IMG/VR virus record: IMGVR_UViG_3300032287_003559
Span: 32,001 to 96,000 of that record
Source: a virus
Strand: one strand, 5' to 3'
DNA: 64,000 nt
The notes under the pieces were generated by a model. That model ran no database searches and was not told where the DNA came from. It worked only from the letters and a program-made list of their open reading frames with translations. The position numbers and the translations under genes are program-made. Below are positions 3,757 through 44,563 of the stretch, piece by piece. Within the stretch, counting starts at the first letter, position 1. Each line of letters opens with the position of its first letter.

Positions 3757-5433
3757 ATGCAAAGGTTTAAACCACATAAAACGGTTGAGCAAATAGCAAA
3801 AAAACATCGTTTAGACGTTGCATTTATACAAAAGCAACTTGATATTGGAGAGCCTATAGAACACGAGCATACTAATGACCATGCTCTTGCAAGAGATATT
3901 GCTCTTCAACATTTGGATGAAATTCCAGACTATTATACTCGTCTTAAAAAAATGGAAGCATCTGCAAAGAAAGAACATAAAAAATTTAAAGATGTAAAAG
4001 AATCTCACGAAGAACAAAGATATTGTCCATTATGTGATAAAAGAGAAACTAGATCGGAGTGTAGTTATGGGGAAAAAGCATGGGATAAGGTATCCGTAAA
4101 AGATGAAGAATATTCAATGGTTCGCTCAGAATTAAAAACTATGGCGGATGCTATTAAGAGATTGGAAATGAAAGTTGGAAAAGGTGAAGGAAATTTAGAA
4201 GCATGGGTACAATCAAAAATCACTAAAGCAGCAGATTATATCGATACTGCAGCAGACTATGTTACAAACGAAGAAATAGAAGAGTCATGCTGGAAGGGAT
4301 ATAAGCAGATAGGAATGAAGAAAAAAGGAAAAAAAACTGTACCAAATTGCGTACCAGAAGAAACTAAATTGGTAGAAAAGATTATTGCTGAGATTATTGA
4401 GGAATCAAAATCGGGAGATTCTTCTCTGCACGATTGGTTCACCAAAAGTAAATCATCGGATGGAAAACCAGGGTGGGTTCAATTAGGTGGAAAATATGCA
4501 GGAAAACCATGTGCAAAACAACCGGGACAAACAACAAAACCAAAATGCGGTAGTTCCAAAATGTCTGCAGAAATGTCCCCAGAAGAGGAAGAAAGAGCTG
4601 CAAGAAGAAAAAGAAAGGAAGATCCAAATCCAGAGAGATCTGGTAAAGCAAGAAATGTTGCAACCGAAGAATACGTCGATGAGGATGCATGTAAAGAAAA
4701 AGTAAAATCGAGATATAAAATTTGGCCAAGTGCATATGCATCTGGAGCACTTGTAAAGTGCCGTAAAGTTGGATCTAAAAATTGGGGCAATAAGTCAAAG
4801 TCTAAAAATGAAGACGTTACTATTGAAGATTTGAATGGTAACACATTTGCAGAAGTTATTGATGTTATTAAACCAGATCCAATTAAAGGTTTTAAATCCC
4901 AGATAGAAGAAGCAACAAGACTTCAATCTGAAACTGGAAATATCATTGCGGTTGTTTTAAGTTGGAGGGGAAAAACATATTCAATTAGAATGTTTTTCCC
5001 ACAAGTATCAATTCCATCAAAAAAAGAAGTAACCTCAGAAATACAAAAAATATACCCAGGATCTATTGTTTTGCAATTCAATGTTTCATCAATTCAAGCG
5101 GGAATGCCGCTCATTCAAGTAGTAAATTCTAAATCAAAAAATTATCTTTTAAACAACAAAACAATTGGTGAAGAAACTATAGAAGAAGTTGCTGCATGGC
5201 AGCGTAAGGAAGGAAAAAACCAAAGTGGTGGACTTAATGAAAAGGGAAGAAAATCTTACGAAAGAGAAAATCCGGGAAGTGACCTTAAAGCGCCAAGCAA
5301 AAAAGTAGGAAATCCGCGTAGAGCATCATTCTGCGCCAGAATGAGGGGAATGAAAAACAAATTGACTTCAGCAAAAACTGCAAATGATCCAAATTCAAGA
5401 ATTAATAAATCACTTAGAGCCTGGAATTGTTAA
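3757..5433 (+). CDS. Hypothetical multi-module basic protein, probable internal virion polyprotein
   Basis: 558-aa ORF after AATAAATA late promoter; small Lys/Cys-rich modules separated by acidic EE linkers. Confidence 0.75.
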   Translation: MQRFKPHKTVEQIAKKHRLDVAFIQKQLDIGEPIEHEHTNDHALARDIALQHLDEIPDYYTRLKKMEASAKKEHKKFKDVKESHEEQRYCPLCDKRETRSECSYGEKAWDKVSVKDEEYSMVRSELKTMADAIKRLEMKVGKGEGNLEAWVQSKITKAADYIDTAADYVTNEEIEESCWKGYKQIGMKKKGKKTVPNCVPEETKLVEKIIAEIIEESKSGDSSLHDWFTKSKSSDGKPGWVQLGGKYAGKPCAKQPGQTTKPKCGSSKMSAEMSPEEEERAARRKRKEDPNPERSGKARNVATEEYVDEDACKEKVKSRYKIWPSAYASGALVKCRKVGSKNWGNKSKSKNEDVTIEDLNGNTFAEVIDVIKPDPIKGFKSQIEEATRLQSETGNIIAVVLSWRGKTYSIRMFFPQVSIPSKKEVTSEIQKIYPGSIVLQFNVSSIQAGMPLIQVVNSKSKNYLLNNKTIGEETIEEVAAWQRKEGKNQSGGLNEKGRKSYERENPGSDLKAPSKKVGNPRRASFCARMRGMKNKLTSAKTANDPNSRINKSLRAWNC

Positions 5434-12195: not shown

Positions 12196-13071
12196 ATGGC
12201 AGGTCTGTCGGACTTTTTTAAACTTATTGAAGAAGAAAAAAAGAAACAGGATAAAGAACTATATTCTCTTCTTGGTGAAGAATTTTCCACGGATAAATTT
12301 ATTGATACTCTGATTTCATCTGCAAAAAAAGAGGTAAAAAAAGAAAAAATTATTGAAAAGAAAATAGAAAAAATATTTAATGATATCCTAATAGATGAAA
12401 AAGATTCTACAGAATCAAAAATAGTTGAAGAAAATATAGAAGAAATAATAGAAGAAGAACTTTTTGAAGAGACTGTTGAGGATCCTTTGATTGAAAAATC
12501 TTTGGGTCTTCTTTCAGAACCATCTAATATTAAACAACAAAACGATCCATTGACTCCAATAGATCAAAAATTTGCAACTCTTGAAGATTTACAGAATCAC
12601 TATAAGATTTTTATTTCTCGTATTCAACAACAACTTTCTACTCTTGGGGGAAGTGGTGAGACTCGTTTAGAATTTTTAGATGATGTTGATAGAAATTCAG
12701 TAAAGGTAAATAATAAATTTCTAAGATATAATTCAAATACTGGGAAATGGAAAGGTTCTGACGCTGGAGAAGGTCCATTTATATCTTCAACAACTTATGT
12801 AACTACATCATCTTATACAATTCTTGAAGGTGATTATTACATAGGAGTTAATTATGCCGGAGCGGTTACAATCACTCTTCCAAATGGAGTGATTCAAGGA
12901 ACAACATACATTGTAAAGGATGAACTTGGGGAAGCTTCCAAGGGAACAAATAGATATATAACAATACTTCCATCTGGATCTGATTTGATTGATGGTAGAG
13001 ATAGAGCAATTCTTGCTTTTGATTATGGTTCACTTACTTTTGTTTATAGAAACGGTTGGAGGGTAGTTTAA
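12196..13071 (+). CDS. Hypothetical virion protein: acidic N-terminus, C-terminal fibre-like beta domain
   Basis: 291-aa ORF; C-terminal YYIGVN..AVTITLP...YIVKDE...IDG...GW pattern resembles tail-fibre repeat units. Confidence 0.65.
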   Translation: MAGLSDFFKLIEEEKKKQDKELYSLLGEEFSTDKFIDTLISSAKKEVKKEKIIEKKIEKIFNDILIDEKDSTESKIVEENIEEIIEEELFEETVEDPLIEKSLGLLSEPSNIKQQNDPLTPIDQKFATLEDLQNHYKIFISRIQQQLSTLGGSGETRLEFLDDVDRNSVKVNNKFLRYNSNTGKWKGSDAGEGPFISSTTYVTTSSYTILEGDYYIGVNYAGAVTITLPNGVIQGTTYIVKDELGEASKGTNRYITILPSGSDLIDGRDRAILAFDYGSLTFVYRNGWRVV

Positions 13072-14333: not shown

Positions 14334-14888
14334 ATGACGCATAGACCAGTTGGGGCTGGGTCCTCATTCACATTTACTGCAGGAACTGCATCAACTTCAT
14401 CTACATTTTCAGTTCAATCTGATACTTTAAGAGTTGTTGCTGTTGGTAACGCTGCACATGTTGCAATTGCAGCAAGTCCAACTGCATCAACAACTGATTA
14501 TTATATTCCCTCCGGAACTGCAATAACTCTTGCATTGACTAAAGCATCTAATAGAGTTGTCGGTGTTACTACAGGAACATCAACGATTCTTACCTTTGCA
14601 GAGGGAACTCAGGCACCTTTCGGTGTTGGTGATTATATTAGTTTAACTGCAAATGCACAGTCATATTATAACTTTACTCACCAACAAGTTACGTCAGTAG
14701 ATACTACTTCTGGCATAAATGGATTTTTCCAAGGGAGAATTGTTGTAAGTTATGATTCAAGTGGAATTGTAACTTCCTTCTCTTCTCCAAATGCAACAGC
14801 AGTTATTTCTCAAAGAATTTCTGCTTATGGCGCAACTGGAGATGGATCACTTTATTATCAGCAAGTACAAATTACCAACCAAGCATGA
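14334..14888 (+). CDS. Hypothetical virion structural protein
   Basis: 184-aa Thr/Ser/Ala-rich ORF, late promoter upstream, coupled to gp21. Confidence 0.7.
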   Translation: MTHRPVGAGSSFTFTAGTASTSSTFSVQSDTLRVVAVGNAAHVAIAASPTASTTDYYIPSGTAITLALTKASNRVVGVTTGTSTILTFAEGTQAPFGVGDYISLTANAQSYYNFTHQQVTSVDTTSGINGFFQGRIVVSYDSSGIVTSFSSPNATAVISQRISAYGATGDGSLYYQQVQITNQA

Positions 14889-15538
14889 TGAAACTTATCA
14901 CAGAAGAAATAGAATCAGTAGAAGTTATTTCTGAAAATGTAAACGGTAAAAAGACTCTGTATATTCAAGGACCTTTCCTTCAGACTGAGCAACCAAATAG
15001 AAATAACAGAATATATCGTCTTCCAGTAATGGAAAGAGAAGTTAAAAGATATACTGAACAGTATGTAAATAAGGGACGTGCTCTTGGCGAACTTGGTCAT
15101 CCAGATGGACCAACTGTAAATCTTGATAGAGTTTCTCATAAGATCGTTTCACTTCATCGTGAAGGAAATAACTTCATTGGAAAAGCGCAGATTCTTTCCA
15201 CTCCTATGGGAAAGATTGCAGAATCTCTCCTTAAGGAAGGCGTAACTTTGGGAGTTTCTTCTCGTGGAATTGGATCTCTAAAACCAACTCGTGAAGGATA
15301 TAACGAAGTAGGCGAAGATTTTATGCTTGCAACTGCTGCTGATATTGTCGCTGATCCTTCTGCACCTGATGCTTTTGTTCAAGGAATTATGGAAGGAAAG
15401 GAGTGGGTATGGGATGGTGGGGTTTTGAGGGAGAAAGAAGCAGAAAACACTAGACGCAGAATAAACACTCTTGTTGATGAAGGAATTCTTGAAGAGTATA
15501 AAATATCATTATTCAATGAGTTTTTAAATTCATTGTAA
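14885..15538 (+). CDS. gp21: Prohead protease gp21
   Basis: MKLITE start, ALGELGHP, GVSSRG.GS, DIVADPSAPDAFV. Confidence 0.97.
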   Translation: MMKLITEEIESVEVISENVNGKKTLYIQGPFLQTEQPNRNNRIYRLPVMEREVKRYTEQYVNKGRALGELGHPDGPTVNLDRVSHKIVSLHREGNNFIGKAQILSTPMGKIAESLLKEGVTLGVSSRGIGSLKPTREGYNEVGEDFMLATAADIVADPSAPDAFVQGIMEGKEWVWDGGVLREKEAENTRRRINTLVDEGILEEYKISLFNEFLNSL

Positions 15539-15593: not shown

Positions 15594-16748
15594 ATGTCTC
15601 GTGGAGATTTACAAGAAATGGAAGTAGGCACAAAGCAATCCAGAACCGCCGTAAATGCAAATGCAAAGGCGGGAGCACCAATGCCAAAACTAGATGCAGG
15701 TGCTGTTGCAGGTCAAACTGGAGATTGGGAAGATCTTGGTGGACCAGATCCTTCAAACTACCGCCCAGATGATGATTCAGCAAAACTTAAAACCCCTGGA
15801 GCAACTCTTAAGCAAGTAAGAGATGTTGTCAATAAGGGCGCTAAGGCTGCAGAACCGATGAAGGGTTTGAATAAAGAAGATACTGAATATGATGAAGATG
15901 AAGAACTCTTAGAAGAAATTGACGAAGAAGACGAAGATCTAGTAGAAGCAAAGAAAGAGAAGAAGGAAAAGGAAGAAGAGGATGAAGAAGATGAGGATGA
16001 AGAAGAAGATGAAGATATGAAGGAAGAGTATAGCATTGAAGAAGATGTCAATGCTCTCTTAGGAGGCGAAGAACTTTCTGAGCAATTCAAGGAGAAAGCA
16101 AAGACAATTTTTGAAGCTGCTTTAAAATCAAAAGTTACTGAAATTAAAGAAGCACTTGAAGTTCAGTATGAAGAGAGACTTTCTGAAGAAATTGAGGAAG
16201 TTAAAGAAGAACTTAAGAATCGTGTAGATTCATATCTAGAATATGTTTCTGACGAGTGGTTTGCTGAGAATACTCTCGTTATCGAGAAAGGACTCAAAAC
16301 CGAAATGACTGAATCATTCCTAACTGGAATGAAGCAACTTTTTGAAGAGCATTATGTAACAATCCCTGAAGATAAATATGATGTACTTGAGAGTATGGTA
16401 GAAAAACTTGATGAAATGGAGACAAAACTCAACGAGCAAATTGAGAAGAATATCTCCCTTAACAAGCGTCTCGCAGAGTCGGTTGCTGATGGGATTTTAG
16501 ATCAAGTTTCTGAGGGACTAGCTCTTACTCAGAAAGACAAGCTCGCTTCACTTGCCGAAAGTGTTGAGTTTGAAAGTGAAGAAGAATATCGTGAGAAACT
16601 GGAGACCTTGAAGGAGGCATACTTCTCAAGATCTGCATCTCCATCCGCTAAAACTGAAACCCTTTCAGAGGGAGTAAGCGTTGCACATGAGTCCGTCTCA
16701 AATTCAATGGCTACTTATCTGAAAACTCTTTCAGCATTCAGCAAATAA
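15594..16748 (+). CDS. gp22: Prohead core scaffold protein gp22
   Basis: Highly acidic coiled coil with LSEQFKEKAKTIFEAA and VDSYLEYV..EW; between gp21 and gp23. Confidence 0.93.
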   Translation: MSRGDLQEMEVGTKQSRTAVNANAKAGAPMPKLDAGAVAGQTGDWEDLGGPDPSNYRPDDDSAKLKTPGATLKQVRDVVNKGAKAAEPMKGLNKEDTEYDEDEELLEEIDEEDEDLVEAKKEKKEKEEEDEEDEDEEEDEDMKEEYSIEEDVNALLGGEELSEQFKEKAKTIFEAALKSKVTEIKEALEVQYEERLSEEIEEVKEELKNRVDSYLEYVSDEWFAENTLVIEKGLKTEMTESFLTGMKQLFEEHYVTIPEDKYDVLESMVEKLDEMETKLNEQIEKNISLNKRLAESVADGILDQVSEGLALTQKDKLASLAESVEFESEEEYREKLETLKEAYFSRSASPSAKTETLSEGVSVAHESVSNSMATYLKTLSAFSK

Positions 16749-16803: not shown

Positions 16804-18234
16804 ATGTTCCAATCAGAGCATCTGCAGGAAAAGTGGGCACCACTCCTCAACTATGAGGGTCTTGATCCAATCAAAGATTCCCATCGTAGAGCAGTAACCG
16901 CTGTCCTGTTAGAAAACCAAGAAAAATTCCTTCGTGAGCAATCAGCTTTCGAAATGTCAGGTTCATTCCTGTCAGAAGCACCAACCAACTCAGCTAATGC
17001 TGTTGGTGGTTCTGGTGGTTTCGGTGGCGGTGCAACTGCTGCTGGTCCTACCGCAGGTTTCGACCCTGTTCTAATCTCACTAATCCGCCGTTCAATGCCT
17101 AACCTGGTCGCTTATGACCTGGCTGGCGTTCAACCAATGAGTGGTCCTACTGGACTCATCTTCGCAATGCGTTCACGTTATACCAACCAGAGTGGTACTG
17201 AAGCATTCTACAACGAAGTAGACTCTTCATTCTCTGGTCAAGACGCTGGATTCAACATTGCTGGTTTTGGTAGCACAAACGCTGGTCTTGGTACAACTGG
17301 ACCACAAAGAGGCACCAACCCATCAGTTCTTAACCCAGTTGGTGGTGGTGGCGATCAAGTAGCATACAACGTTGGACAAGGCATGCCAACGGGTGATGCA
17401 GAACAACTTGACGGTACTACTGGTGACGCATTCAACCAGATGGCTTTCTCGATCGAGAAAGTCACCGTTACTGCAAAGTCACGCGCTCTGAAAGCTGAGT
17501 ACTCACTTGAGCTCGCTCAAGACCTCAAGGCAATCCACGGTCTGAATGCTGAAGCGGAATTAGCAAACATTCTCTCAACTGAGATTCTTGCTGAAATCAA
17601 CCGCGAAGTCATCAGAACCATCTATAAGGTTGCTGAACAGGGTGCTGTACAGAACGTTGCAACCCCAGGTATCTTCGACCTCGACGTTGACTCCAACGGT
17701 CGTTGGTCAGTTGAGAAGTTCAAGGGTCTTCTGTTCCAAATTGAGAGAGATGCTAACGCTATCGCTCAGAGAACTCGTCGTGGAAAGGGTAACATCATCA
17801 TGTGCTCTGCTGACGTTGCTTCAGCACTGACCATGGCTGGTGTTCTCGACTACACCCCTGCACTCAACGCTAACCTGAATGTCGATGATACCGGCAACAC
17901 CTTTGCTGGTACTCTGATGGGCAAGTTCCGCGTCTATATTGACCCATATTCGGCTAACTTGACCTCAGCTAACGCTGCACCAGGTAACCAGTATTATGTC
18001 GTAGGTTATAAGGGTTCTTCCCCTTATGATGCAGGTCTCTTCTACTGCCCATATGTTCCTCTCCAAATGGTACGTGCCGTTGGTGAGAACAGCTTCCAGC
18101 CCAAGATTGGCTTTAAGACCCGTTATGGTCTTGTTTCCAACCCATTCGCTGAAGGCACCACTCAGGGTCTTGGTAGACTACAGGTTGACTCCAACCGTTA
18201 CTACAGACGTGTTGCAGTTAAAAACCTCATGTGA
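16804..18234 (+). CDS. gp23: Major capsid protein gp23
   Basis: DPVLISLIRRSMPNL, GVQPMSGPTGLIFAMR, SRALKAEYSLELAQDLKAIHG, QPKIGFKTRYG. Confidence 0.99.
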   Translation: MFQSEHLQEKWAPLLNYEGLDPIKDSHRRAVTAVLLENQEKFLREQSAFEMSGSFLSEAPTNSANAVGGSGGFGGGATAAGPTAGFDPVLISLIRRSMPNLVAYDLAGVQPMSGPTGLIFAMRSRYTNQSGTEAFYNEVDSSFSGQDAGFNIAGFGSTNAGLGTTGPQRGTNPSVLNPVGGGGDQVAYNVGQGMPTGDAEQLDGTTGDAFNQMAFSIEKVTVTAKSRALKAEYSLELAQDLKAIHGLNAEAELANILSTEILAEINREVIRTIYKVAEQGAVQNVATPGIFDLDVDSNGRWSVEKFKGLLFQIERDANAIAQRTRRGKGNIIMCSADVASALTMAGVLDYTPALNANLNVDDTGNTFAGTLMGKFRVYIDPYSANLTSANAAPGNQYYVVGYKGSSPYDAGLFYCPYVPLQMVRAVGENSFQPKIGFKTRYGLVSNPFAEGTTQGLGRLQVDSNRYYRRVAVKNLM

Positions 18235-24987: not shown

Positions 24988-27124
24988 AGACCTTGTAGTA
25001 GAGCACAAGAAGGTTGAGACTGCCTGCTTTAACGTTCATACGAGGGTTTTGACTCTTCCGATGTGGGAGCGTGCTTCTGGGACCGTCTACGACCTTCTGG
25101 TGGGGCATGAGGTTGGACATGCACTCTTTACCCCCGATGAGGATTGGACTGAAACTGTAAAGGTTCCTCCGCAGTTTGTGAATGTGGTTGAGGATGCTCG
25201 CATTGAGAAACTGATGAAGCGTAAGTATGCTGGACTTGCTAAAACTTTCTTCTCTGGTTATAAAGAACTGAACGAAGAAGATTTCTTTCAACTTGAAGAT
25301 GAAGATGTTTCCAAGTTTAATCTTGCTGACAGGGCAAACCTTTATTTTAAGGTAGGTAATTTTCTTTCTCTTGAGTTTACTGCTAAAGAGAAGGAGATTA
25401 TTGACCTGATTGCAGTTTCTGAAAGTTTTGCAGACGTTCTGATTGCTGCAGAAGAACTTTACAAGTATTGTAAGAAAGAAAAGGAACAAGAAAAGGTTGA
25501 TGAGATTGAAACTCAACAACCTCAAGGTTCTGCAACTTCTCCTACTGAGAATCAATCGGATGAAGGTGAAGGTGATAGTGAAGAAGAAGGTAAAGCAAAT
25601 AAACCCGATACAAATGGTGAGTTGGATGAAAACAAATCTTCCGATAGTAGTCAGCAATCTACTTCTTCTAATGTGAGTGTAGATGAAGAACCTGAAATCA
25701 AGACTGTAGATAATCTTGAGGATAAAATCCGTGAGCTTGTAAGTAAAGATGGATATGAGAATGTCTATGTTGAAGTTCCGAAAGTAAATCTGGAAACGAT
25801 TATCGGCAAGAACTCTGAGATTCATAAAGAGATTACTGGTGCTTTTAATCAGCAACAGAACTCTTACAATGAGTGTAACAACACCACTTCAGTTGATTTG
25901 TTTAAAGAAGCAGATACTTCTTTCCGTCAGTTTAAAGTTTCCGCTCAAAAGGAAGTGAACTATCTGGTGAAAGAGTTTGAGTGCCGTAAGTCTGCGGATT
26001 CTTATGCTCGTGCATCTACTGCTCGCACTGGAGTTCTTGATACTGCTCGTCTTCATTCTTACAAGTTCAGTGAGGATTTGTTTAAGAAAGTGACTGTGCT
26101 TCCTGATGGTAAAAATCATGGACTGATTTTCATTCTGGATTGGTCGGGTTCTATGGCTAATGTTCTTCTGGATACTTGCAAGCAACTCTTTAATCTGATT
26201 TGGTTCTGTAAGAAAGTTTCTATTCCTTTTGAGGTTTATGCTTTCACAAATGAATGGCGACGTAACGCATATGATTATGAAACTGGGAAACATGTTGCAG
26301 CAGACCGTACCTCTCACTATGAAAAGAAAGAAGGTGTGTTTTGTATTGATGAAGACTTTGCCTTGATGAATATTCTCACCAGCAAGGTTTCTGGTAACGA
26401 ACTGGAAAAGCAACTGATGAATATTTGGCGTCTTGCTGTGTATTTTGGAGATACTTATCACACTCCTTATACTTGTCCTTCTCGTCTATATTTGTCTGGA
26501 ACTCCTCTAAATGAAAGTTTGGTTGCTCTGCATCAAATTCTTCCCAAGTTTCAAAGTGAGAATAAACTGCAGAAGGTTCAGTGCGTGATTCTGACTGATG
26601 GTGAAGCAAACGTTCTTCCTTATCATAAAGAAGTGAAGCGTGCTTGGGAAAAACAACCTTATCTTGGAGTTCATGGTATTGGTTCCAATTCTTTTCTGCG
26701 AGATAGGAAACTTGGAACTACCTATAAACTGGATGGTGTTTATCAGGGATATCATAAGTTCACTGATGTGATGCTTCTCAATCTTCGTGATAAGTTTCCT
26801 TTTACAAACTTCATTGGTATTCGGGTTCTTTCCAGCCGTGACGCATATCGCTTCATTAGTCTCTATCATTCTGCTTCTGATGAAGACTATAAGCAGTACA
26901 TTAAAATTCAGGATGATTGGAAGAAACTGAAGAGTTTCACGATTACCAAATCTGGATATCACGCTTACTTTGGTCTTTCTTCCTCTGCTCTGTCTCAAGA
27001 TGCTGAGTTTGATGTTTCAGAATCTGCAACAAAAGCACAAATCAAATCTGCTTTTGTGAAGTCTCTGAAGACTAAGAAACTTAACAAAAAGGTTCTTGGT
27101 GAGTTCATTTCTCTTGTTGCATAA
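24935..27124 (+). CDS. Metallopeptidase-like plus VWA domain protein (CobT-like partner of CobS)
   Basis: HEVGH (HExxH), NVVEDARIE, acidic linker, MIDAS DWSGS, GTPL, LTDGE. Confidence 0.85.
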   Translation: MAVNHEIKSQLAKLLATEDLVVEHKKVETACFNVHTRVLTLPMWERASGTVYDLLVGHEVGHALFTPDEDWTETVKVPPQFVNVVEDARIEKLMKRKYAGLAKTFFSGYKELNEEDFFQLEDEDVSKFNLADRANLYFKVGNFLSLEFTAKEKEIIDLIAVSESFADVLIAAEELYKYCKKEKEQEKVDEIETQQPQGSATSPTENQSDEGEGDSEEEGKANKPDTNGELDENKSSDSSQQSTSSNVSVDEEPEIKTVDNLEDKIRELVSKDGYENVYVEVPKVNLETIIGKNSEIHKEITGAFNQQQNSYNECNNTTSVDLFKEADTSFRQFKVSAQKEVNYLVKEFECRKSADSYARASTARTGVLDTARLHSYKFSEDLFKKVTVLPDGKNHGLIFILDWSGSMANVLLDTCKQLFNLIWFCKKVSIPFEVYAFTNEWRRNAYDYETGKHVAADRTSHYEKKEGVFCIDEDFALMNILTSKVSGNELEKQLMNIWRLAVYFGDTYHTPYTCPSRLYLSGTPLNESLVALHQILPKFQSENKLQKVQCVILTDGEANVLPYHKEVKRAWEKQPYLGVHGIGSNSFLRDRKLGTTYKLDGVYQGYHKFTDVMLLNLRDKFPFTNFIGIRVLSSRDAYRFISLYHSASDEDYKQYIKIQDDWKKLKSFTITKSGYHAYFGLSSSALSQDAEFDVSESATKAQIKSAFVKSLKTKKLNKKVLGEFISLVA

Positions 27125-27151
27125 ATACCTAAAAAGTATTTCTGCGTAAAA

Positions 27152-28000
27152 ATGAGAACCTATCAAGAATTTGTTTCTGAAATGACCTATGGTAGAGGTC
27201 GTGGACCAATCGGTAGAGCAGATAGGAACAGTGGTAGAAATCGTTATCTGGGGTCTCCTACACCAGAACAGGAAAGAGAAAACAAATCTGCAGCAGATAA
27301 AGCTGCTGCAGATGCTGTTGCAAAATTAAGAAGAGCAAGAGCAAGAGAAATGAAGGAAGAGGTAGAACTTGATGAAGGTATGACGATGAAGGACTTTAAG
27401 GCAAATCGTCAGAAGAATAAAAGAAGAGCTGCTTCTGCCGATGCTGTGAAGAGAGGTCATGTAGGTAAGGAATGGTATAACAGCGGTAGAAAGTATTCTC
27501 CAGATGAAGCAAAGAGAATGCGTTCAAAACTGGATGATGAAGAAAGACGTACAAGACATCGTAGTGCTGTAGAACCTGATAATGAGAGTGATGATAACTT
27601 CTCTGCAGACAAGACGAAGAATCCAAAGAAACTCCGTAAGCAAAAAGCGATGGGAGAACTTGGTGAAGCATTAGATAAAAAATTCGATTCTATGAGAAGT
27701 CGTGGTGGAAGAAGTGCTCCTCCAGAAGAGCGTTCTGTTGGTGGCGAAATGAATAGAAAAAGTAAGGATTATTGGGCGGATACTTTAGGTAAGAATAGAG
27801 ATAGAGGAAAGGGTAGTAAAGCAAAAAGAAGAGCTGCGGCACTTGGGGAGGATAACGTTCAGGAGTTATTCATTACAAGAAAATCTCCAGAACAAAAAGC
27901 AGATGAGGCAAGAAAGAAAAAAGTAGCAACACTCATTCGTTTAATGCAACACGCAAAAGACCCTGCTGCTGATGTTGCTAAGTCCAAAAAGGAAGGTTGA
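27152..28000 (+). CDS. Basic modular protein with capsid-targeting-like N-terminus (putative internal head protein)
   Basis: Starts MRTYQEFVSE (T4 internal-protein CTS is MKTYQEFIAE); ATAAATA late promoter at 27121. Confidence 0.75.
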   Translation: MRTYQEFVSEMTYGRGRGPIGRADRNSGRNRYLGSPTPEQERENKSAADKAAADAVAKLRRARAREMKEEVELDEGMTMKDFKANRQKNKRRAASADAVKRGHVGKEWYNSGRKYSPDEAKRMRSKLDDEERRTRHRSAVEPDNESDDNFSADKTKNPKKLRKQKAMGELGEALDKKFDSMRSRGGRSAPPEERSVGGEMNRKSKDYWADTLGKNRDRGKGSKAKRRAAALGEDNVQELFITRKSPEQKADEARKKKVATLIRLMQHAKDPAADVAKSKKEG

Positions 28001-28026
28001 TGGACCAGTTGCTGAACTGACTACTC

Positions 28027-28049
28027 GGGGTCTCTAGGACCCCTTTTTT
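28027..28049 (+). terminator. Intrinsic terminator
   Basis: GGGGTC...GACCCC hairpin plus T6. Confidence 0.75.
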
Positions 28050-28087
28050 GTCCTATAATAACTTCAGTGAAACAAACCACTCACATC

Positions 28088-41111: not shown

Positions 41112-41136
41112 GACCTCCTTCGGGAGGTCTTTTTTT
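41112..41136 (+). terminator. Intrinsic terminator (UUCG loop)
   Basis: GACCTCC-TTCG-GGAGGTC plus T7. Confidence 0.92.
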
Positions 41137-41143
41137 ATAAATA
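41136..41143 (+). promoter_or_regulatory. T4-type late promoter TATAAATA
   Basis: Exact consensus directly after the terminator. Confidence 0.75.
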
Positions 41144-41164
41144 ACTAAAAAAGTATTTCTAACC

Positions 41165-42085
41165 ATGGAAGGCAAGCACATAAAAGATTTGATGGAAGCA
41201 TATTTGCAAATGTATGCTCCTAAAGAAGAAATTGAAGAAGGCAAATCTTCCAGACCACGCTATCCTGGTGGTAGAGGTGTATTAGACCAGGAAAGAAGAG
41301 ATGAAAAGAGAGAAGCATCTGCCGAAAACATGCGCGGTCATACTGCAGGTGCTGGTACAGTAACAAAAAATCCAAAGAAACTCCGTAAGCAAAAGGCTAT
41401 GGGAGAACTTGGCGAAGCAGTAAAGGGTGCTGACCCAGAAATGAGAAAGGCAGCATCTGCAGAAAGAAGAGCGGGTGATAAACCTCTTTCTAAAAAAGTT
41501 GGTGATGCACACGCTGCTAATATGGCAAGAAAGATTAGATTTTCTGATAAAGTTACCAAAGCAAAGGGTCATATTCCTGGATATGCTTATGCTGAAGAAG
41601 TAGATATCTTTGATGTTGTCCTTGAGTTCCTCCAAGTAGAAGGTATTGCAGATACTCTAGAAGAAGCAGCATGGGTAATGGCAAATCTTATTGATGAAGA
41701 GATTGTTTCTGATATTCTTGATGAAGCATCATACTCTGCAAAAGCAGCAAGAGCAGGTAAGGATATTGGTAAACCTGGTAAAGCATTTGCAAAGATTGCT
41801 GCTTCTGCCGCTAAGCGTTATGGATCTAAAGAGCGTGGTGAAAAGGTAGCAGGTGCAGTTCTTGCAAAACTTCGTAAGGAAGAAATAGAACTACTTGACG
41901 AGGTATTAGATACTCCTGAAAAAGCAAATGAATATGCCAAGAAGAATGTAAAATCTATGCTTGGTGCTTTCGCTAAAGGTGTTGTGAATAAAGATATGAG
42001 TCAAATGAAAACTATTAAGAAAAGAACTGAAGGTGCAAAGATGGCAAAAAGAAAGGCAGAAAGAAAGGCAGCAGAAGAAAACTAA
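41165..42085 (+). CDS. Basic modular protein (putative internal head polyprotein)
   Basis: Late promoter; K/R/A-rich modules separated by IEE, LGE, LDE; shares a 19-aa module with 27152..28000. Confidence 0.75.
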   Translation: MEGKHIKDLMEAYLQMYAPKEEIEEGKSSRPRYPGGRGVLDQERRDEKREASAENMRGHTAGAGTVTKNPKKLRKQKAMGELGEAVKGADPEMRKAASAERRAGDKPLSKKVGDAHAANMARKIRFSDKVTKAKGHIPGYAYAEEVDIFDVVLEFLQVEGIADTLEEAAWVMANLIDEEIVSDILDEASYSAKAARAGKDIGKPGKAFAKIAASAAKRYGSKERGEKVAGAVLAKLRKEEIELLDEVLDTPEKANEYAKKNVKSMLGAFAKGVVNKDMSQMKTIKKRTEGAKMAKRKAERKAAEEN

Positions 42086-42224: not shown

Positions 42225-42254
42225 CTTCTAAATACTTAAAAAAGTATTGTATAA

Positions 42255-43262
42255 ATGGCGGTTTTATCGGGAAAAACTACAGCAGGTGAAAGTGCCTTTG
42301 ATAAGTATATAAAAAATAATCCAAAATGGAAAGATTTGGATTTATTAGTTGAAGAAAAAATGGAGGCAGTTTTTTATAAAGAAAATAAAAAAGATATCCA
42401 TAGTATGCTTTCATCTGGAACAAAACTTGAACTAGTTTCAAATCAACAAATTTCAATAGGAAATTTAAAATTAGCTCATGTAAAAGTTGGTACTAAAAGA
42501 GGTTATGTTCCTATCAATAAAATTAGAAAACCAACAAAAACAAATGTTTTGGCTGCAGAAGAGGCAGCCATGAGAGATTTGAATAATCTTATCCAAAAAC
42601 TTGTTACCCAAATTGGACCTATTAAAATATGCACGCCTGTTGGAACTTATGAAGGTATAACGGGAGTCCGGAATATTACCGAAAAAGTTCTTGGTAGAGA
42701 AGCAAAAGCAGACTTTGCTTTAGTCGCAAATGGTAAAGATAAAATATTCATTTCCCATAAAAAAAGTGGAGGTCCTGCAGCATATCAACAATATGGTGGA
42801 GTTTCTCCAAAGTCTGGATCACAATCTAAACCAACATTAATATATGATAATAAAGAGGTGCAAGATTTTTTGATGAAAGTTACCTCTTATATTGAGAATG
42901 ATAAGTTAGTTCATCCAGTGTATTCTTCTGTACTAAGTGATCAATTGATTAATCAATCTGTTTTTGGTCCTTCGTATGGAGGAAATTTTGGAATAGATAA
43001 TGTTCAATGTATCGGACAAGGGGATCCAATTCTTAAACCAAAAAGAAATGAAGAATCTTGTTTTACTTTAGATTTTTCAGATCATGTTTCTTGGAATGGG
43101 GATACTTCTTATTTTAAAACAGGTCAATATAAAGCTGTTTTTGCTGCTACTTTTAGAGCCGGAAGAGGATTTGATGTTGGTGGGATAAGATATAATGGAG
43201 CTAGAGTCGCTATTTATCCAATAGCCTTGGTTCAGAATAGAAGTGGCGCTAAAGAGATTTAA
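42255..43262 (+). CDS. Hypothetical protein, putative PD-(D/E)XK-type nuclease
   Basis: 335 aa; E...KADFAL...IFISHKK resembles a restriction-endonuclease-fold core. Confidence 0.55.
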   Translation: MAVLSGKTTAGESAFDKYIKNNPKWKDLDLLVEEKMEAVFYKENKKDIHSMLSSGTKLELVSNQQISIGNLKLAHVKVGTKRGYVPINKIRKPTKTNVLAAEEAAMRDLNNLIQKLVTQIGPIKICTPVGTYEGITGVRNITEKVLGREAKADFALVANGKDKIFISHKKSGGPAAYQQYGGVSPKSGSQSKPTLIYDNKEVQDFLMKVTSYIENDKLVHPVYSSVLSDQLINQSVFGPSYGGNFGIDNVQCIGQGDPILKPKRNEESCFTLDFSDHVSWNGDTSYFKTGQYKAVFAATFRAGRGFDVGGIRYNGARVAIYPIALVQNRSGAKEI

Positions 43263-43288: not shown

Positions 43289-44563
43289 ATGAAAAGTTTC
43301 CTTAATTTTCTAACTGAAGCAAAAGAATCGCAGGCAGCAATGCAAGCGAAAAAACTTGGATATACTGGAGACGGTCATGGCGGATGGTTAGATCGTTCCG
43401 GTAAACTTGTTGCAAGAACAGATAAAGGAAAACTTAAGTATATTGATGGACGCCAACCAAAAGGCGCAGAACAACCCGCAGGACAAGCACCTACAGGAGC
43501 AGCAGCATCCTCTCCCCAACCAACTGCAGCAGCACAAGCACCTGCACCACAACCTCAAGCAGCGCCAGGACAAGCACCAGAAGAGCAACCTGCAGAAGAA
43601 CTCCCACCACTTACTGTTGTCTTTGGTCGATTCAATCCACCAACAGTAGGACACGAAAAACTTCTCAAGTCCGCAAAGAGAATTTCTGCTGGTGGAGATA
43701 TTAAGATATATCCTTCAAGAACTCAAGATCCAAAGAAGAATCCTTTAGATCCAAATTCTAAAGTTTCATACATGAAAAAAATGTTCCCTGAGTTTGAGGA
43801 GAACATTATTAATGATGATGATATGAAAACAATTTTCGATGTTCTTGTAAATGCTAATGAAGATGGATATACAAATGTAAATATTGTAGTTGGTTCAGAT
43901 CGTCAAGCAGAATTCGAAAACCTAGCACAAAAGTATAATGGAGATCTTTATACCTTTGACCAGATCCGCGTAATCTCTGCTGGAGTAAGAGATGCTGATG
44001 CTGAAGGTGTTGAAGGAATGTCAGCATCTAAGATGAGACAGGCAGTGATGGATGATGACTTTAAATCATTCCGCAGAGGAACTCCAAAAACACTTGATGA
44101 TGGAGAAACTCAAGCACTTTTCAATGCTGTTCGTCAAGGAATGAATGTTAAGAAATCAAAAGTCAAGAAAGAATCATACTCTTTATGGGAGATTGCTCCA
44201 AAGTATGATATGAGAAATCTTCGTGAGAATTATGTAAGAGGAAAAATATTTAATATTGGTGATAAGGTCGAGAACTTAAATACTGGATTGGTTGGTGAAG
44301 TAATGCGTAGAGGAACTAATCATTTAATTTGTGTAACTGAAGAGGGTTATATGTTTAAGTCTTGGATTAAAGATGTGATGGAAGCATACCAAGAAAAAAA
44401 AGTCGATTCTATTCAAAGAGTTTCTGGAAAACCTAATACTTTGGTTGGAACTGAAGGATTCAGAAAACTTGCGATGAAGATGGCTTCCACAAAAAGGATT
44501 ACTAATTTTAATGTTGAGCAATTCATAAATAAGTATAAGGCAAAGAAAGTAAGTACTTATTAA
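43289..44563 (+). CDS. Cytidylyltransferase-like (HIGH-superfamily) nucleotidyltransferase
   Basis: FGRFNPPTVGHEKL, VVGSDR, MSASKMR; CTS-like start MKSFLNFLTEA; P/A/Q-rich linker. Confidence 0.85.
   Translation: MKSFLNFLTEAKESQAAMQAKKLGYTGDGHGGWLDRSGKLVARTDKGKLKYIDGRQPKGAEQPAGQAPTGAAASSPQPTAAAQAPAPQPQAAPGQAPEEQPAEELPPLTVVFGRFNPPTVGHEKLLKSAKRISAGGDIKIYPSRTQDPKKNPLDPNSKVSYMKKMFPEFEENIINDDDMKTIFDVLVNANEDGYTNVNIVVGSDRQAEFENLAQKYNGDLYTFDQIRVISAGVRDADAEGVEGMSASKMRQAVMDDDFKSFRRGTPKTLDDGETQALFNAVRQGMNVKKSKVKKESYSLWEIAPKYDMRNLRENYVRGKIFNIGDKVENLNTGLVGEVMRRGTNHLICVTEEGYMFKSWIKDVMEAYQEKKVDSIQRVSGKPNTLVGTEGFRKLAMKMASTKRITNFNVEQFINKYKAKKVSTY

What the first reader, a model, noticed from the sequence alone, without database searches (positions are those of the whole stretch)
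27614..27670. Identical 19-aa module in two unrelated genes, with only synonymous differences
Seen: TKNPKKLRKQKAMGELGEA is encoded at 27614-27670 and again at 41363-41419. The copies match at 52 of 57 nt, and all 5 differences are third-position synonymous (acg/aca, aag/aaa, aaa/aag, gcg/gct, ggt/ggc). Flanking protein sequence is unrelated, and the module ends at a putative LxE cleavage site. Inference: module exchange between genes plus purifying selection on the peptide, implying a discrete function.
Basis: seen in the sequence. Interest (0 to 1): 0.75.

Follow-up and report, generated by a model that had tools for sequence, protein, structure and literature searches.

The report
Conserved basic tail of cyanophage head-cargo modules
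Two unrelated late genes of a freshwater T4-like cyanophage share an identical 19-residue basic peptide because both use the same small building block, whose strictly conserved end probably marks a head-protease cut point in proteins packed into the capsid.

Summary
TKNPKKLRKQKAMGELGEA is encoded at 27614-27670 and 41363-41419, with 52/57 nt identical, five synonymous differences (dN 0, dS about 0.6) and flanks at random identity.

It is not a private exchange between these two genes. The 15-residue core TKNPKKLRKQKAMGE occurs in at least 119 viral contigs (254 copies analysed), and 115 of 119 lie beside T4-like cyanophage genes.

- Upstream of the core there are only about four module types.
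- Downstream there are at least 33 unrelated modules, or the stop codon within 5 residues (67 copies).

Both window genes are self-contained late cassettes. P0001 starts MRTYQEFVSE, against the T4 capsid-targeting sequence MKTYQEFIAE. P0002 has a second conserved leader. The window encodes the gp21 protease, gp22 and gp23.

Module joints carry hydrophobic-x-Glu. This holds at 153 of 153 starts of the 94-residue module that ends in the motif.

My reading is mosaic, capsid-loaded, gp21-cut internal proteins. The motif would be a basic helix plus a cut site at a module's C-terminal end. Neither packaging nor cleavage has been measured for motif-bearing proteins.

Earlier notes in this scan describe the same system on other genomes.

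The parts
27614..27670 (+). Motif copy A (TKNPKKLRKQKAMGELGEA), the C-terminal end of module B in P0001
41363..41419 (+). Motif copy B, the C-terminal end of the optional 59-aa cassette in P0002
27152..28000 (+). P0001: 282 aa, pI 10.1, no Pfam or PHROG family. Layout: leader, module A, module B, module C, module D
27152..27181 (+). T4 capsid-targeting-sequence-like leader MRTYQEFVSE (7 of 10 identical to MKTYQEFIAE)
27377..27658 (+). Module B (residues 76-169): a 94-aa basic unit, GMTMKDFK...KAMGE, preceded by L-D-E
41165..42085 (+). P0002: 306 aa, pI 9.3. Layout: class-2 leader, optional basic cassette, AVKGA module, acidic three-helix module, basic tail
41165..41197 (+). Class-2 leader MEGKHIKDLME|AY, with L-M-E at residues 9-11. 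It is shared by 108 of the 119 nearest relatives
41240..41416 (+). Optional 59-aa cassette (residues 26-84), bounded by IEE| and LGE|
27121..27143 (+). Late-promoter-like ATAAATA plus a shared 23-nt leader block upstream of P0001
41136..41159 (+). Exact TATAAATA plus the same leader block upstream of P0002, preceded by terminator hairpin 41112-41129
28027..28049 (+). Terminator-like hairpin plus T-run after P0001
14885..15538 (+). gp21-type prohead protease (Peptidase_S77), the presumed processing enzyme
15594..16748 (+). gp22-type scaffold with a long acidic stretch
16804..18234 (+). gp23 major capsid protein. Its N-terminal region reads ...GSFLSE|APT, with L-S-E at residues 56-58
43289..44563 (+). 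NMNAT-like cytidylyltransferase starting MKSFLNFLTE|AK. Its homologues were detected in cyanophage virions

Best explanation
The shared peptide is the strictly conserved C-terminal end of small, very basic, largely unstructured peptide modules. The population core is TKNPKKLRKQKAMGE; in this window it is followed by LGE|A. Freshwater and estuarine T4-like cyanophages string these modules together in late-expressed proteins.

P0001 and P0002 each drew a motif-bearing module from a common, heavily shuffled pool. P0001 holds the 94-aa module B, and P0002 holds an optional 59-aa cassette. The identity is kept by purifying selection on the peptide, not by recent copying between the two genes.

Proposed mechanism, all steps inferred:
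1. Both proteins are made late.
2. They are loaded into the prohead core through their N-terminal leaders. P0001 has a near-copy of the T4 capsid-targeting sequence, and P0002 has a second conserved leader.
3. The gp21 prohead protease cuts after hydrophobic-x-Glu at the module joints, including M-G-E and L-G-E at the end of the motif.
4. This releases roughly 6-11 kDa basic peptides analogous to T4 internal proteins. In relatives it also releases downstream cargo such as a SAM lyase.

Within the motif, N-P caps a short helix (KKLRKQKA) carrying five basic charges. That helix most likely binds DNA or an acidic core component, and G-E ends the unit.
For: What the sequence and searches show:
- The window has a T4-type head machine: portal, gp21 S77 protease, gp22 and gp23. 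gp23 carries ...FLSE|A.
- P0001 starts MRTYQEFVSE, against the T4 CTS MKTYQEFIAE. T4 gp21 cuts after L/I-x-E, and CTS positions 4 and 7 target while positions 8 and 10 govern processing.
- Both genes have ATAAATA/TATAAATA, a shared 23-nt leader and terminators.
- The exact core occurs in at least 119 IMG/VR contigs, and 115 of 119 have T4-like cyanophage neighbours at the same hot spots as here.
- Among 254 copies, upstream contexts fall into 4 main clusters (171, 52, 15 and 6 copies). Downstream contexts fall into at least 33 clusters, and 67 copies lie within 5 residues of the stop codon.
- Module B is preceded by [LIVMF]xE in 153 of 153 cases, across 30 upstream contexts plus N-terminal leaders. 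The background rate is 2.7% per position.
- Homology breakpoints pile up at residues 169/172/175 in P0001 and 81-86 in P0002.
- Whole cassettes bounded by LGE, IEE or VDE are present or absent between relatives.
- The smallest ORFs (106-109 aa) are a leader plus module B.
- Module B has pI 10.1 and an AF2 model of isolated helices only, with the motif forming helix 83-91.
- Synonymous sites vary while the amino acids do not.

Published virion mass spectrometry on relatives with such leaders:
- S-SCSM1 ORF89, the syntenic P0002 homologue.
- NMNAT-like cytidylyltransferases.
- S-CREM2 gp6 SAM hydrolase, which starts MKDFDSFLEE.
- P0007, 97% identical to P0001, continues into a SAM lyase domain after L-S-E.
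Against: - No motif-bearing protein has been shown in a virion. S-SZBM1_194, which has two motif copies, is not among the 30 proteins of the S-SZBM1 virion proteome. K/R-rich proteins do give poor tryptic peptides, so this is weak evidence.
- No cleavage has been measured in any cyanophage.
- The conserved site is M-G-E, not the canonical L/I-x-E. P0001's leader ends V-S-E.
- About a quarter of copies (67 of 254) sit within 5 residues of the stop codon, where a cut serves no obvious purpose.
- A three-residue cut site does not explain twelve invariant basic residues upstream.
- [LIVM]xE sites are only mildly enriched overall: 7 against 3.3+-1.7 expected in P0001, and 9 against 6.7+-2.2 in P0002.
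- Several codons are nearly fixed (AAG-AAA at KK in 97-99% of copies), so some nucleotide-level constraint or shared ancestry is not excluded.
Confidence: 0.6

Rival explanations
1. The motif is a short linear binding motif that acts after delivery, or in the infected cell. It would dock the carrier modules on a conserved host target such as nucleoid DNA, ribosome or RNA polymerase. The Gly-Glu end would simply be the module terminus, not a cut site.
For: - Fifteen invariant residues lie in a segment modelled only as isolated helices without a compact fold (pTM 0.26; motif helix pLDDT about 70-76), in many contexts.
- About a quarter of copies are at the protein C-terminus.
- Cargo-less forms such as P0001 and P0008 persist, so the basic modules matter on their own.
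- From memory, N-P-K-K resembles the S/T-P-K-K minor-groove turn of histone tails.
Against: - No exact motif occurs in 185,579 prokaryote genomes, so there is no sign of host mimicry.
- No partner has been identified.
- This reading does not explain why the residue three before the final Glu is always M, I, L or V, or why a second [LIVMF]xE follows in 46% of internal copies.
- It is compatible with, rather than exclusive of, the main explanation.
Confidence: 0.2
2. These are late cytoplasmic proteins, for example histone-like DNA condensers or assembly chaperones. They are never packaged, and the leader resemblance to the T4 CTS is inherited sequence without a targeting function.
For: - S-SZBM1_194 is absent from the virion proteome list.
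- The authors of the S-CREM2 paper caution that abundant late proteins may co-purify with virions.
Against: - P0001's leader is 7 of 10 identical to a leader experimentally sufficient for packaging in T4.
- The loose leader patterns hit only 5 of 141 ORFs of at least 100 aa in the genome. These include the cytidylyltransferase, whose homologues were found in four virion proteomes.
- The syntenic P0002 homologue is a mass-spectrometry-detected virion protein.
Confidence: 0.12
3. The identity reflects nucleotide-level function or recent gene conversion. The 57-nt stretch would be a recombination linker, or an RNA or DNA element, copied between the two loci.
For: - Codons are nearly fixed at several positions: AAG-AAA 97-99%, CGT/CGC only for Arg, CTC/CTT for Leu.
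- Conserved stretches at cassette borders could serve as microhomology for shuffling. A shared 23-nt promoter-leader block exists as well.
Against: - dS is 0.61 with dN 0.
- The window's two copies are no closer than random pairs from different phages.
- The third positions of Thr, Pro, Ala, Gly and Glu vary freely across the population while the residues do not.
- Conservation stops at codon boundaries, and the flanks are at random identity.
Confidence: 0.06
4. P0001 and P0002 are ordinary diverged paralogues, and the motif is just their best-conserved patch.
For: Weak remote similarity extends about 30 residues upstream of the motif between the two contexts (hhalign probability 62%). BLASTP extends to 25 of 46 identities.
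Against: - There is no alignment outside residues 129-174 of P0001 and 41-86 of P0002.
- The leaders, other modules and lengths differ.
- Close relatives of P0002 lack the cassette entirely.
Confidence: 0.02

Closest known systems
[quoted passage not shown]
   Same: - N-terminal leader of about 10 residues (MRTYQEFVSE against MKTYQEFIAE).
- Small, basic, non-essential-looking proteins.
- A phage with gp20, gp21, gp22 and gp23.
- Hydrophobic-x-Glu sites.
- Highly variable between related phages.
   Different: - T4 IPs are single units cut once after the CTS. Here several shuffled modules are strung in one ORF with a cut motif at each joint.
- There is a second, unrelated leader class.
- There is no sequence similarity to the IP bodies.
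- The conserved C-terminal basic tail has no T4 counterpart that I know of.
- Packaging and cleavage are unmeasured.
T4 Alt (ADP-ribosyltransferase packed in the head, trimmed by gp21 at both termini)
   Same: It shows that gp21 can also process near a C-terminus, and that enzymes ride in the T4 head. This parallels a cut site at the C-terminal end of a module, and the SAM lyase and NMNAT-like cargo in relatives.
   Different: Alt is one folded enzyme. P0001 and P0002 have no enzyme domain.
Virion-associated SAM hydrolase of cyanophage S-CREM2 (gp6) and Pfam PF23780 SAM lyases (T3 SAMase, Svi3-3)
   Same: Close relatives of P0001 (P0007, P0009, P0011) carry this domain after the same basic modules. 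S-CREM2 gp6 has a CTS-like start and was found in virions by mass spectrometry.
   Different: The window's P0001 stops just before the point where the domain begins in P0007, and the genome record has no PF23780 match. S-CREM2 gp6 lacks the 19-aa motif.
Polyvalent proteins of phages and conjugative elements (Iyer, Burroughs, Anand, de Souza, Aravind 2017; recalled from memory)
   Same: The concept matches: multi-module proteins delivered with the DNA and possibly cut into separate effectors.
   Different: Those are very large proteins made of several enzymatic anti-defence domains, often with their own peptidase. Here the modules are tiny basic peptides and the protease is the head maturation protease.
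Inner-body and head proteins of phiKZ-like jumbo phages cut at S/A/G-x-E (recalled from memory)
   Same: Extensive prohead-protease processing of internal head proteins with a short x-Glu motif.
   Different: Different protease lineage and motif, different proteins, and no shared leader.

Membership tests
T4-type CTS-targeted internal head proteins | N-terminal leader of about 10 aa resembling MKTYQEFIAE and ending in L/I-x-E | tested here: met
   P0001 starts MRTYQEFVSE, 7 of 10 identical, with the aromatic residues at positions 4 and 7 and Glu10 kept, and V in place of I at position 8. P0002 has a different conserved leader with L-M-E at residues 9-11, so the feature is only analogous for P0002.
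T4-type CTS-targeted internal head proteins | Encoded by a phage with a gp21 (S77) prohead protease, gp22 scaffold and gp23 capsid protein | tested here: met
   PF03420 match with E 2e-35 at window 14936-15391. PHROG hits to portal, protease, scaffold and major head protein.
T4-type CTS-targeted internal head proteins | Small, basic mature products | tested here: met
   pI is 10.1 for P0001, 10.1 for module B (11 kDa) and 9.3 for P0002.
T4-type CTS-targeted internal head proteins | Expressed late, with the head genes | tested here: inconclusive
   TATAAATA or ATAAATA lies 22-25 nt upstream of both start codons, as before gp22 and other structural genes. This is a motif match only; there are no expression data.
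T4-type CTS-targeted internal head proteins | Physically present in the capsid and ejected with the DNA | not testable with these tools
   The literature gives mass-spectrometry detection for relatives without the motif (S-SCSM1 ORF89, NMNAT-like enzymes, S-CREM2 gp6). Motif-bearing S-SZBM1_194 was not listed.
T4-type CTS-targeted internal head proteins | Cleaved by gp21 after L/I-x-E | not testable with these tools
   Indirect evidence only: 153 of 153 module-B starts follow [LIVMF]xE, and cassette borders coincide with such sites.
SAM lyase (Pfam PF23780) | Presence of the S-AdoMet_lyase domain | tested here: not met
   No Pfam hit in P0001 or P0002 and no match in the 175-kb record. The domain is present in relatives P0007 and P0011.
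Ordinary paralogues | Alignment over most of both proteins | tested here: not met
   BLASTP aligns only 46 residues.
SPKK-type DNA minor-groove motif (histone H1 and H2B tails; recalled from memory) | S/T-P-K/R-K/R turn, usually repeated | tested here: inconclusive
   The motif has N-P-K-K once, with Asn in place of Ser/Thr. DNA binding was not tested.
Polyvalent proteins | Several enzymatic anti-defence domains in one very large protein | tested here: not met
   No Pfam domain in either protein, and both are about 300 aa.

The most novel reading that the evidence does not exclude
The 15-residue core is a dedicated, portable C-terminal signal of a new kind that complements the N-terminal capsid-targeting leader. 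It would be a histone-tail-like DNA tether, or an exit signal, that fixes basic carrier peptides and whatever cargo is fused behind them to the packaged genome. They would then leave the capsid with the DNA, and the adjacent Gly-Glu cut would decide whether cargo stays tethered or is released.
Probability: 0.15. Interest if true: 0.8.

Novelty: new variant of a known kind. Interest (0 to 1): 0.5.

Why it matters
T4's capsid-targeting leader and gp21 processing are the textbook way a phage loads proteins into its head for delivery into the next host. This has been worked out only in coliphages.

The data here indicate that abundant T4-like cyanophages use the same address tag, plus a second one, on a large, unnamed, heavily shuffled pool of mini-modules and enzymes. 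The enzymes include a SAM lyase and an NMNAT-like enzyme.

The conserved basic tail is the sharpest landmark of that pool. It gives a searchable 15-residue marker for such cargo genes, and it defines exact peptide termini that virion mass spectrometry could test. It is also a candidate functional element, either a DNA tether or a processing site.

If confirmed, it would explain many hypothetical virion proteins in cyanophage proteomes. It would also show how anti-defence cargo is swapped between phages at protease-site joints.

My literature searches found no paper that links the capsid-targeting sequence to cyanophage genes. The only co-occurrence of the terms was in a T4 review.

Tried and rejected
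- **Binding test.** Complex prediction of the acidic three-helix module (A4) with the motif segment (A5) gave no verdict: score 0.01 against a mark of 0.32. This is not evidence either way.
- **Family scans.** PHROGs and Pfam returned nothing for P0001 or P0002.
- **Solved structures.** A profile search of PDB sequences with module B gave only a chance hit at E 0.36.
- **Acidic module fold.** The AF2 model is good (pLDDT 83), but Foldseek against PDB gave no match at E 0.001 or better, only trivial three-helix overlaps with RNA polymerase beta-prime.
- **ESM Atlas.** The feature search scored 0.82-0.83, below the useful range.
- **Prokaryote genomes.** A scan of 185,579 species for the exact motif gave 0 hits.
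- **Cultured phages.** Only S-SZBM1 and S-CREM1 carry the motif.
- **S-CREM1 supplement.** The table lists ORF219 but does not mark which ORFs were found by mass spectrometry.
- **Recent intragenomic gene conversion.** Rejected, because the two copies are no closer than random inter-phage pairs.
- **Selection on a minus-strand ORF.** Rejected on frame grounds (and reasoning).
- **Module breakpoints by BLAST coverage.** The maps were blurred by low-complexity basic sequence. Only the peaks at the motif end are used.
- **Sequencing runs.** They were used only to note habitat. Thirteen non-source runs in at least 9 studies hold half or more of the P0001 words, mostly freshwater, reservoir or groundwater metagenomes.

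Full report
**1. Observation**

The two stretches are exactly as described.
- The peptide TKNPKKLRKQKAMGELGEA is residues 155-173 of the 282-aa ORF 27152-28000 (P0001) and residues 67-85 of the 306-aa ORF 41165-42085 (P0002).
- 52 of 57 nt match, and the five differences are synonymous third positions.
- With 12 synonymous and 45 non-synonymous sites, dS is 0.61 and dN is 0. The neighbouring 57 nt on each side are 26% identical.
- BLASTP of the two proteins aligns only this segment.
- The 175,135-bp genome record (35.6% GC) holds only these two copies.
- Minus-strand ORFs overlap both copies but in different frames, so the plus frame is the one under selection.

**2. Setting**

The window is part of a T4-like cyanomyovirus.
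- Head genes: portal (10249), gp21 prohead protease (14885-15538, Peptidase_S77), gp22 scaffold with a long acidic run, and gp23 (16804).
- Replication and other genes: gp46/47, clamp and clamp loader, regA, Hsp20, gp43, UvsX, gp41, MazG, CobS and an NMNAT-like cytidylyltransferase.
- gp23 reads ...GSFLSE|APT at residues 53-61. This is the position where, from memory, T4 gp23 is cut after L-T-E.

P0001 lies between a 738-aa protein and cobS. P0002 lies between mazG and two genes whose S-SCSM1 homologues are annotated as virion proteins.

Both genes are self-contained units.
- A terminator hairpin (41112-41129) is followed by an exact TATAAATA (41136-41143).
- A 23-nt block, ATAAATA-N-CTAAAAA(A)GTATTTCT, occurs at 27121-27143 and 41137-41159. 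A third, weaker copy lies before ORF 42255. Three matches were seen against 0.2 expected by chance.
- A terminator follows P0001 at 28027-28043.

Near-identical copies of the P0001 region occur in 13 non-source runs from at least 9 studies. These are mostly freshwater, reservoir or groundwater metagenomes.

**3. The motif in the population**

- 115 of 119 loci carry a long match to another gene of this phage. The most frequent neighbours are mazG (38), gp41 (33), the cytidylyltransferase (32), the 738-aa protein (28) and cobS (26). These are the same two hot spots as in the window.
- No prokaryote genome of 185,579 species has the motif.
- Among cultured phages only S-SZBM1 and S-CREM1 have it, each with two copies in one 707-aa or 783-aa protein.

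In 351 distinct proteins I counted 254 copies, allowing up to 3 substitutions.
- The sequence upstream falls into about four clusters: 171 of the module-B type ...YSADK-T, 52 of the P0002 type ...G-x-G-x-V-T, then 15 and 6.
- The sequence downstream falls into at least 33 unrelated clusters.
- 67 copies lie within 5 residues of the stop codon, with tails HD, LG, HG or H.
- Alignment A5 shows conservation confined to T-K-N-P-K-K-L-R-K-Q-K-A-M-G-E. Variants at the Met position are I, L or V.

At codon level:
- Thr, Pro, Leu, Ala, Gly and Glu third positions vary across copies.
- Some codons are nearly fixed, for example AAG-AAA at KK in 97-99% of copies.
- The window's two copies differ at 4 of 45 nt. 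This is ordinary for any pair from different contigs (mean 5.3; 32% of pairs differ at 4 or fewer). There is therefore no sign of recent conversion.

**4. The real units**

In P0001 the motif ends a 94-aa module (residues 76-169, GMTMKDFK...KAMGE).
- It is 88% identical on average over 88 sequences.
- It is found in only 120 clusters among 1.84 billion representative proteins. It occurs at any position in proteins of 44 to 1012 aa, some probably fragments.
- It also occurs alone behind a 12-residue leader in ORFs of 106-109 aa.
- It has pI 10.1.
- AlphaFold gives isolated helices only (pLDDT 64.6, pTM 0.26), with the motif as helix 83-91 after an N-P cap.

In P0002 the motif ends an optional 59-aa cassette (residues 26-84).
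- Only 24 of the 119 nearest relatives have it.
- In the others the leader's ...EEIEE or ...EVDE runs straight into AVKGA..., or a different cassette ending ...VDE sits there.

With the motif removed, the two upstream contexts still align weakly (hhalign probability 62%, E 7.5e-5). They may therefore descend from one ancient unit of about 60 aa whose tail is its most constrained part.

**5. Leaders and joints**

The T4 capsid-targeting sequence is MKTYQEFIAE. It suffices to load foreign proteins into the T4 head. Positions 4 and 7 matter for targeting, and positions 8 and 10 for processing. gp21 cuts after L/I-x-E.

Leaders:
- P0001 starts MRTYQEFVSE.
- Motif-bearing ORFs from the viral contigs start with a few stereotyped leaders: MKTFQEFMxIAE; MDxKELRGLMEAY, the P0002 class; MSTNPLNDISKVYLEQ; and MASWEEFSRIVAE. 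Others begin with a DUF3008-like module.
- In this genome, two loose leader patterns hit only 5 of 141 ORFs of at least 100 aa: P0001, P0002, the cytidylyltransferase (MKSFLNFLTE|AK), an ORF between portal and protease, and one probable chance hit.

Joints:
- Module B is preceded by [LIVMF]-x-E in 153 of 153 cases, behind 30 different upstream contexts and 31 N-terminal leaders. The background rate is 2.7% per position.
- After M-G-E, 86 of 187 internal copies continue with another [LIVMF]xE (LGE 58, IGE 21).
- Whole cassettes come and go exactly at such sites. P0009 lacks the 61 residues between the two LGE sites of P0001.
- Many internal junctions read ...KAMGE-MVSFSDFMEA.... This looks like a fossil start codon and leader of a once-separate downstream gene.

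**6. Cargo and proteomics**

- P0007 is 97% identical to P0001 but runs on, after L-S-E, into a SAM lyase domain (PF23780). The window's gene stops just before that point, and the record has no such domain.
- Other relatives end in DUF6321 or contain DUF3008.
- Published virion mass spectrometry found three groups of relatives: the syntenic P0002 homologue of S-SCSM1 (ORF89); NMNAT-like cytidylyltransferases in S-SCSM1, S-SZBM1, S-CREM2 and S-CBWM1; and a 414-aa SAM hydrolase of S-CREM2 (19 peptides) that starts MKDFDSFLEE.
- Against this, S-SZBM1_194, which carries two motif copies, is not in the S-SZBM1 list. The S-CREM2 authors also note that abundant late proteins may co-purify with virions.

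**7. Reading**

The best-supported picture is a pool of shuffled mini-modules and enzymes. They carry head-address leaders, are expressed late, are loaded into the prohead and are cut by gp21 at hydrophobic-x-Glu joints.

The 19-residue identity arises because two such genes each contain a module that ends in the same strongly selected tail. The tail combines an N-capped, five-charge basic helix with the cut motif.
- The helix probably binds DNA or an acidic core component.
- The Gly-Glu end marks and probably frees the unit.

Packaging and cleavage of motif-bearing proteins are inferred, not shown. The twelve invariant basic residues need a function beyond a cut site.

The rival readings are set out under Rival explanations:
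- a binding motif that acts after delivery;
- unpackaged late proteins;
- a nucleotide-level constraint or gene conversion;
- plain paralogy.

**8. Comparison, novelty and earlier notes**

This works like the T4 internal-protein/CTS system and meets its sequence-level criteria. It differs in four ways: multi-module polyproteins, a second leader class, cassette exchange at protease sites, and this conserved C-terminal tail.

My literature searches found no description of it in cyanophages.

Earlier notes of this scan describe the same system on this genome and on others. One of them mentions a KNPKKLRKQKAMGEH tail and an identical promoter block on another genome. I treated those notes as leads and re-derived the points here.

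Noticed in passing
window 27121-27143, 41137-41159, 42228-42250: A 23-nt promoter-leader block (ATAAATA-N-CTAAAAA(A)GTATTTCT) precedes P0001, P0002 and, with 3 mismatches, the next gene. That gene is ORF 42255-43262, which sits where S-SCSM1 has a virion-protein gene. Three matches were found against 0.2 expected by chance.
   Followed up: partly
window 3757-5433: A 558-aa ORF just upstream of the large terminase gene is another mosaic. It has a Cys-containing CWKGY...NCVP module also present in S-CREM1_219. Its C-terminal end closely resembles the DUF6321 end of relative P0026, judged by eye; Pfam was not run on it.
   Followed up: partly
window 12196-13071: A 291-aa ORF between the portal and the prohead protease starts MAGLSDFFKLIEE, which resembles a capsid-targeting leader. 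It may be a prohead core protein. Its only PHROG matches are weak tail-fibre hits.
   Followed up: no
window 27990-28066, and P0007: A 97%-identical relative of P0001 carries a C-terminal SAM lyase domain. In the window the gene stops just before that point and is followed by a terminator, so this phage has a cargo-less version.
   Followed up: yes
window 43289-44563: The NMNAT-like cytidylyltransferase starts MKSFLNFLTE|AK, a T4 CTS-like leader. This would explain why homologues keep turning up in cyanophage virion proteomes.
   Followed up: partly
window 41585-41740 (P0002 residues 141-192): An acidic three-helix module, widespread in this family, folds confidently (pLDDT 83, pTM 0.63) but has no significant PDB match. 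It often sits right before module B or right after the motif.
   Followed up: partly
L004-L122 (motif copies): The Lys-Lys codons of the motif are AAG-AAA in 97-99% of 98 distinct copies, although other synonymous sites vary freely. Possible causes are avoidance of an A-run, shared ancestry or a nucleotide-level constraint. This remains unexplained.
   Followed up: partly
L028, L017 and about 35 other copies: Internal junctions often read ...KAMGE-MVSFSDFMEA or -SLSFSDFIAE. This looks like the start codon and leader of a formerly separate downstream gene, which suggests gene fusion by loss of a stop codon.
   Followed up: no
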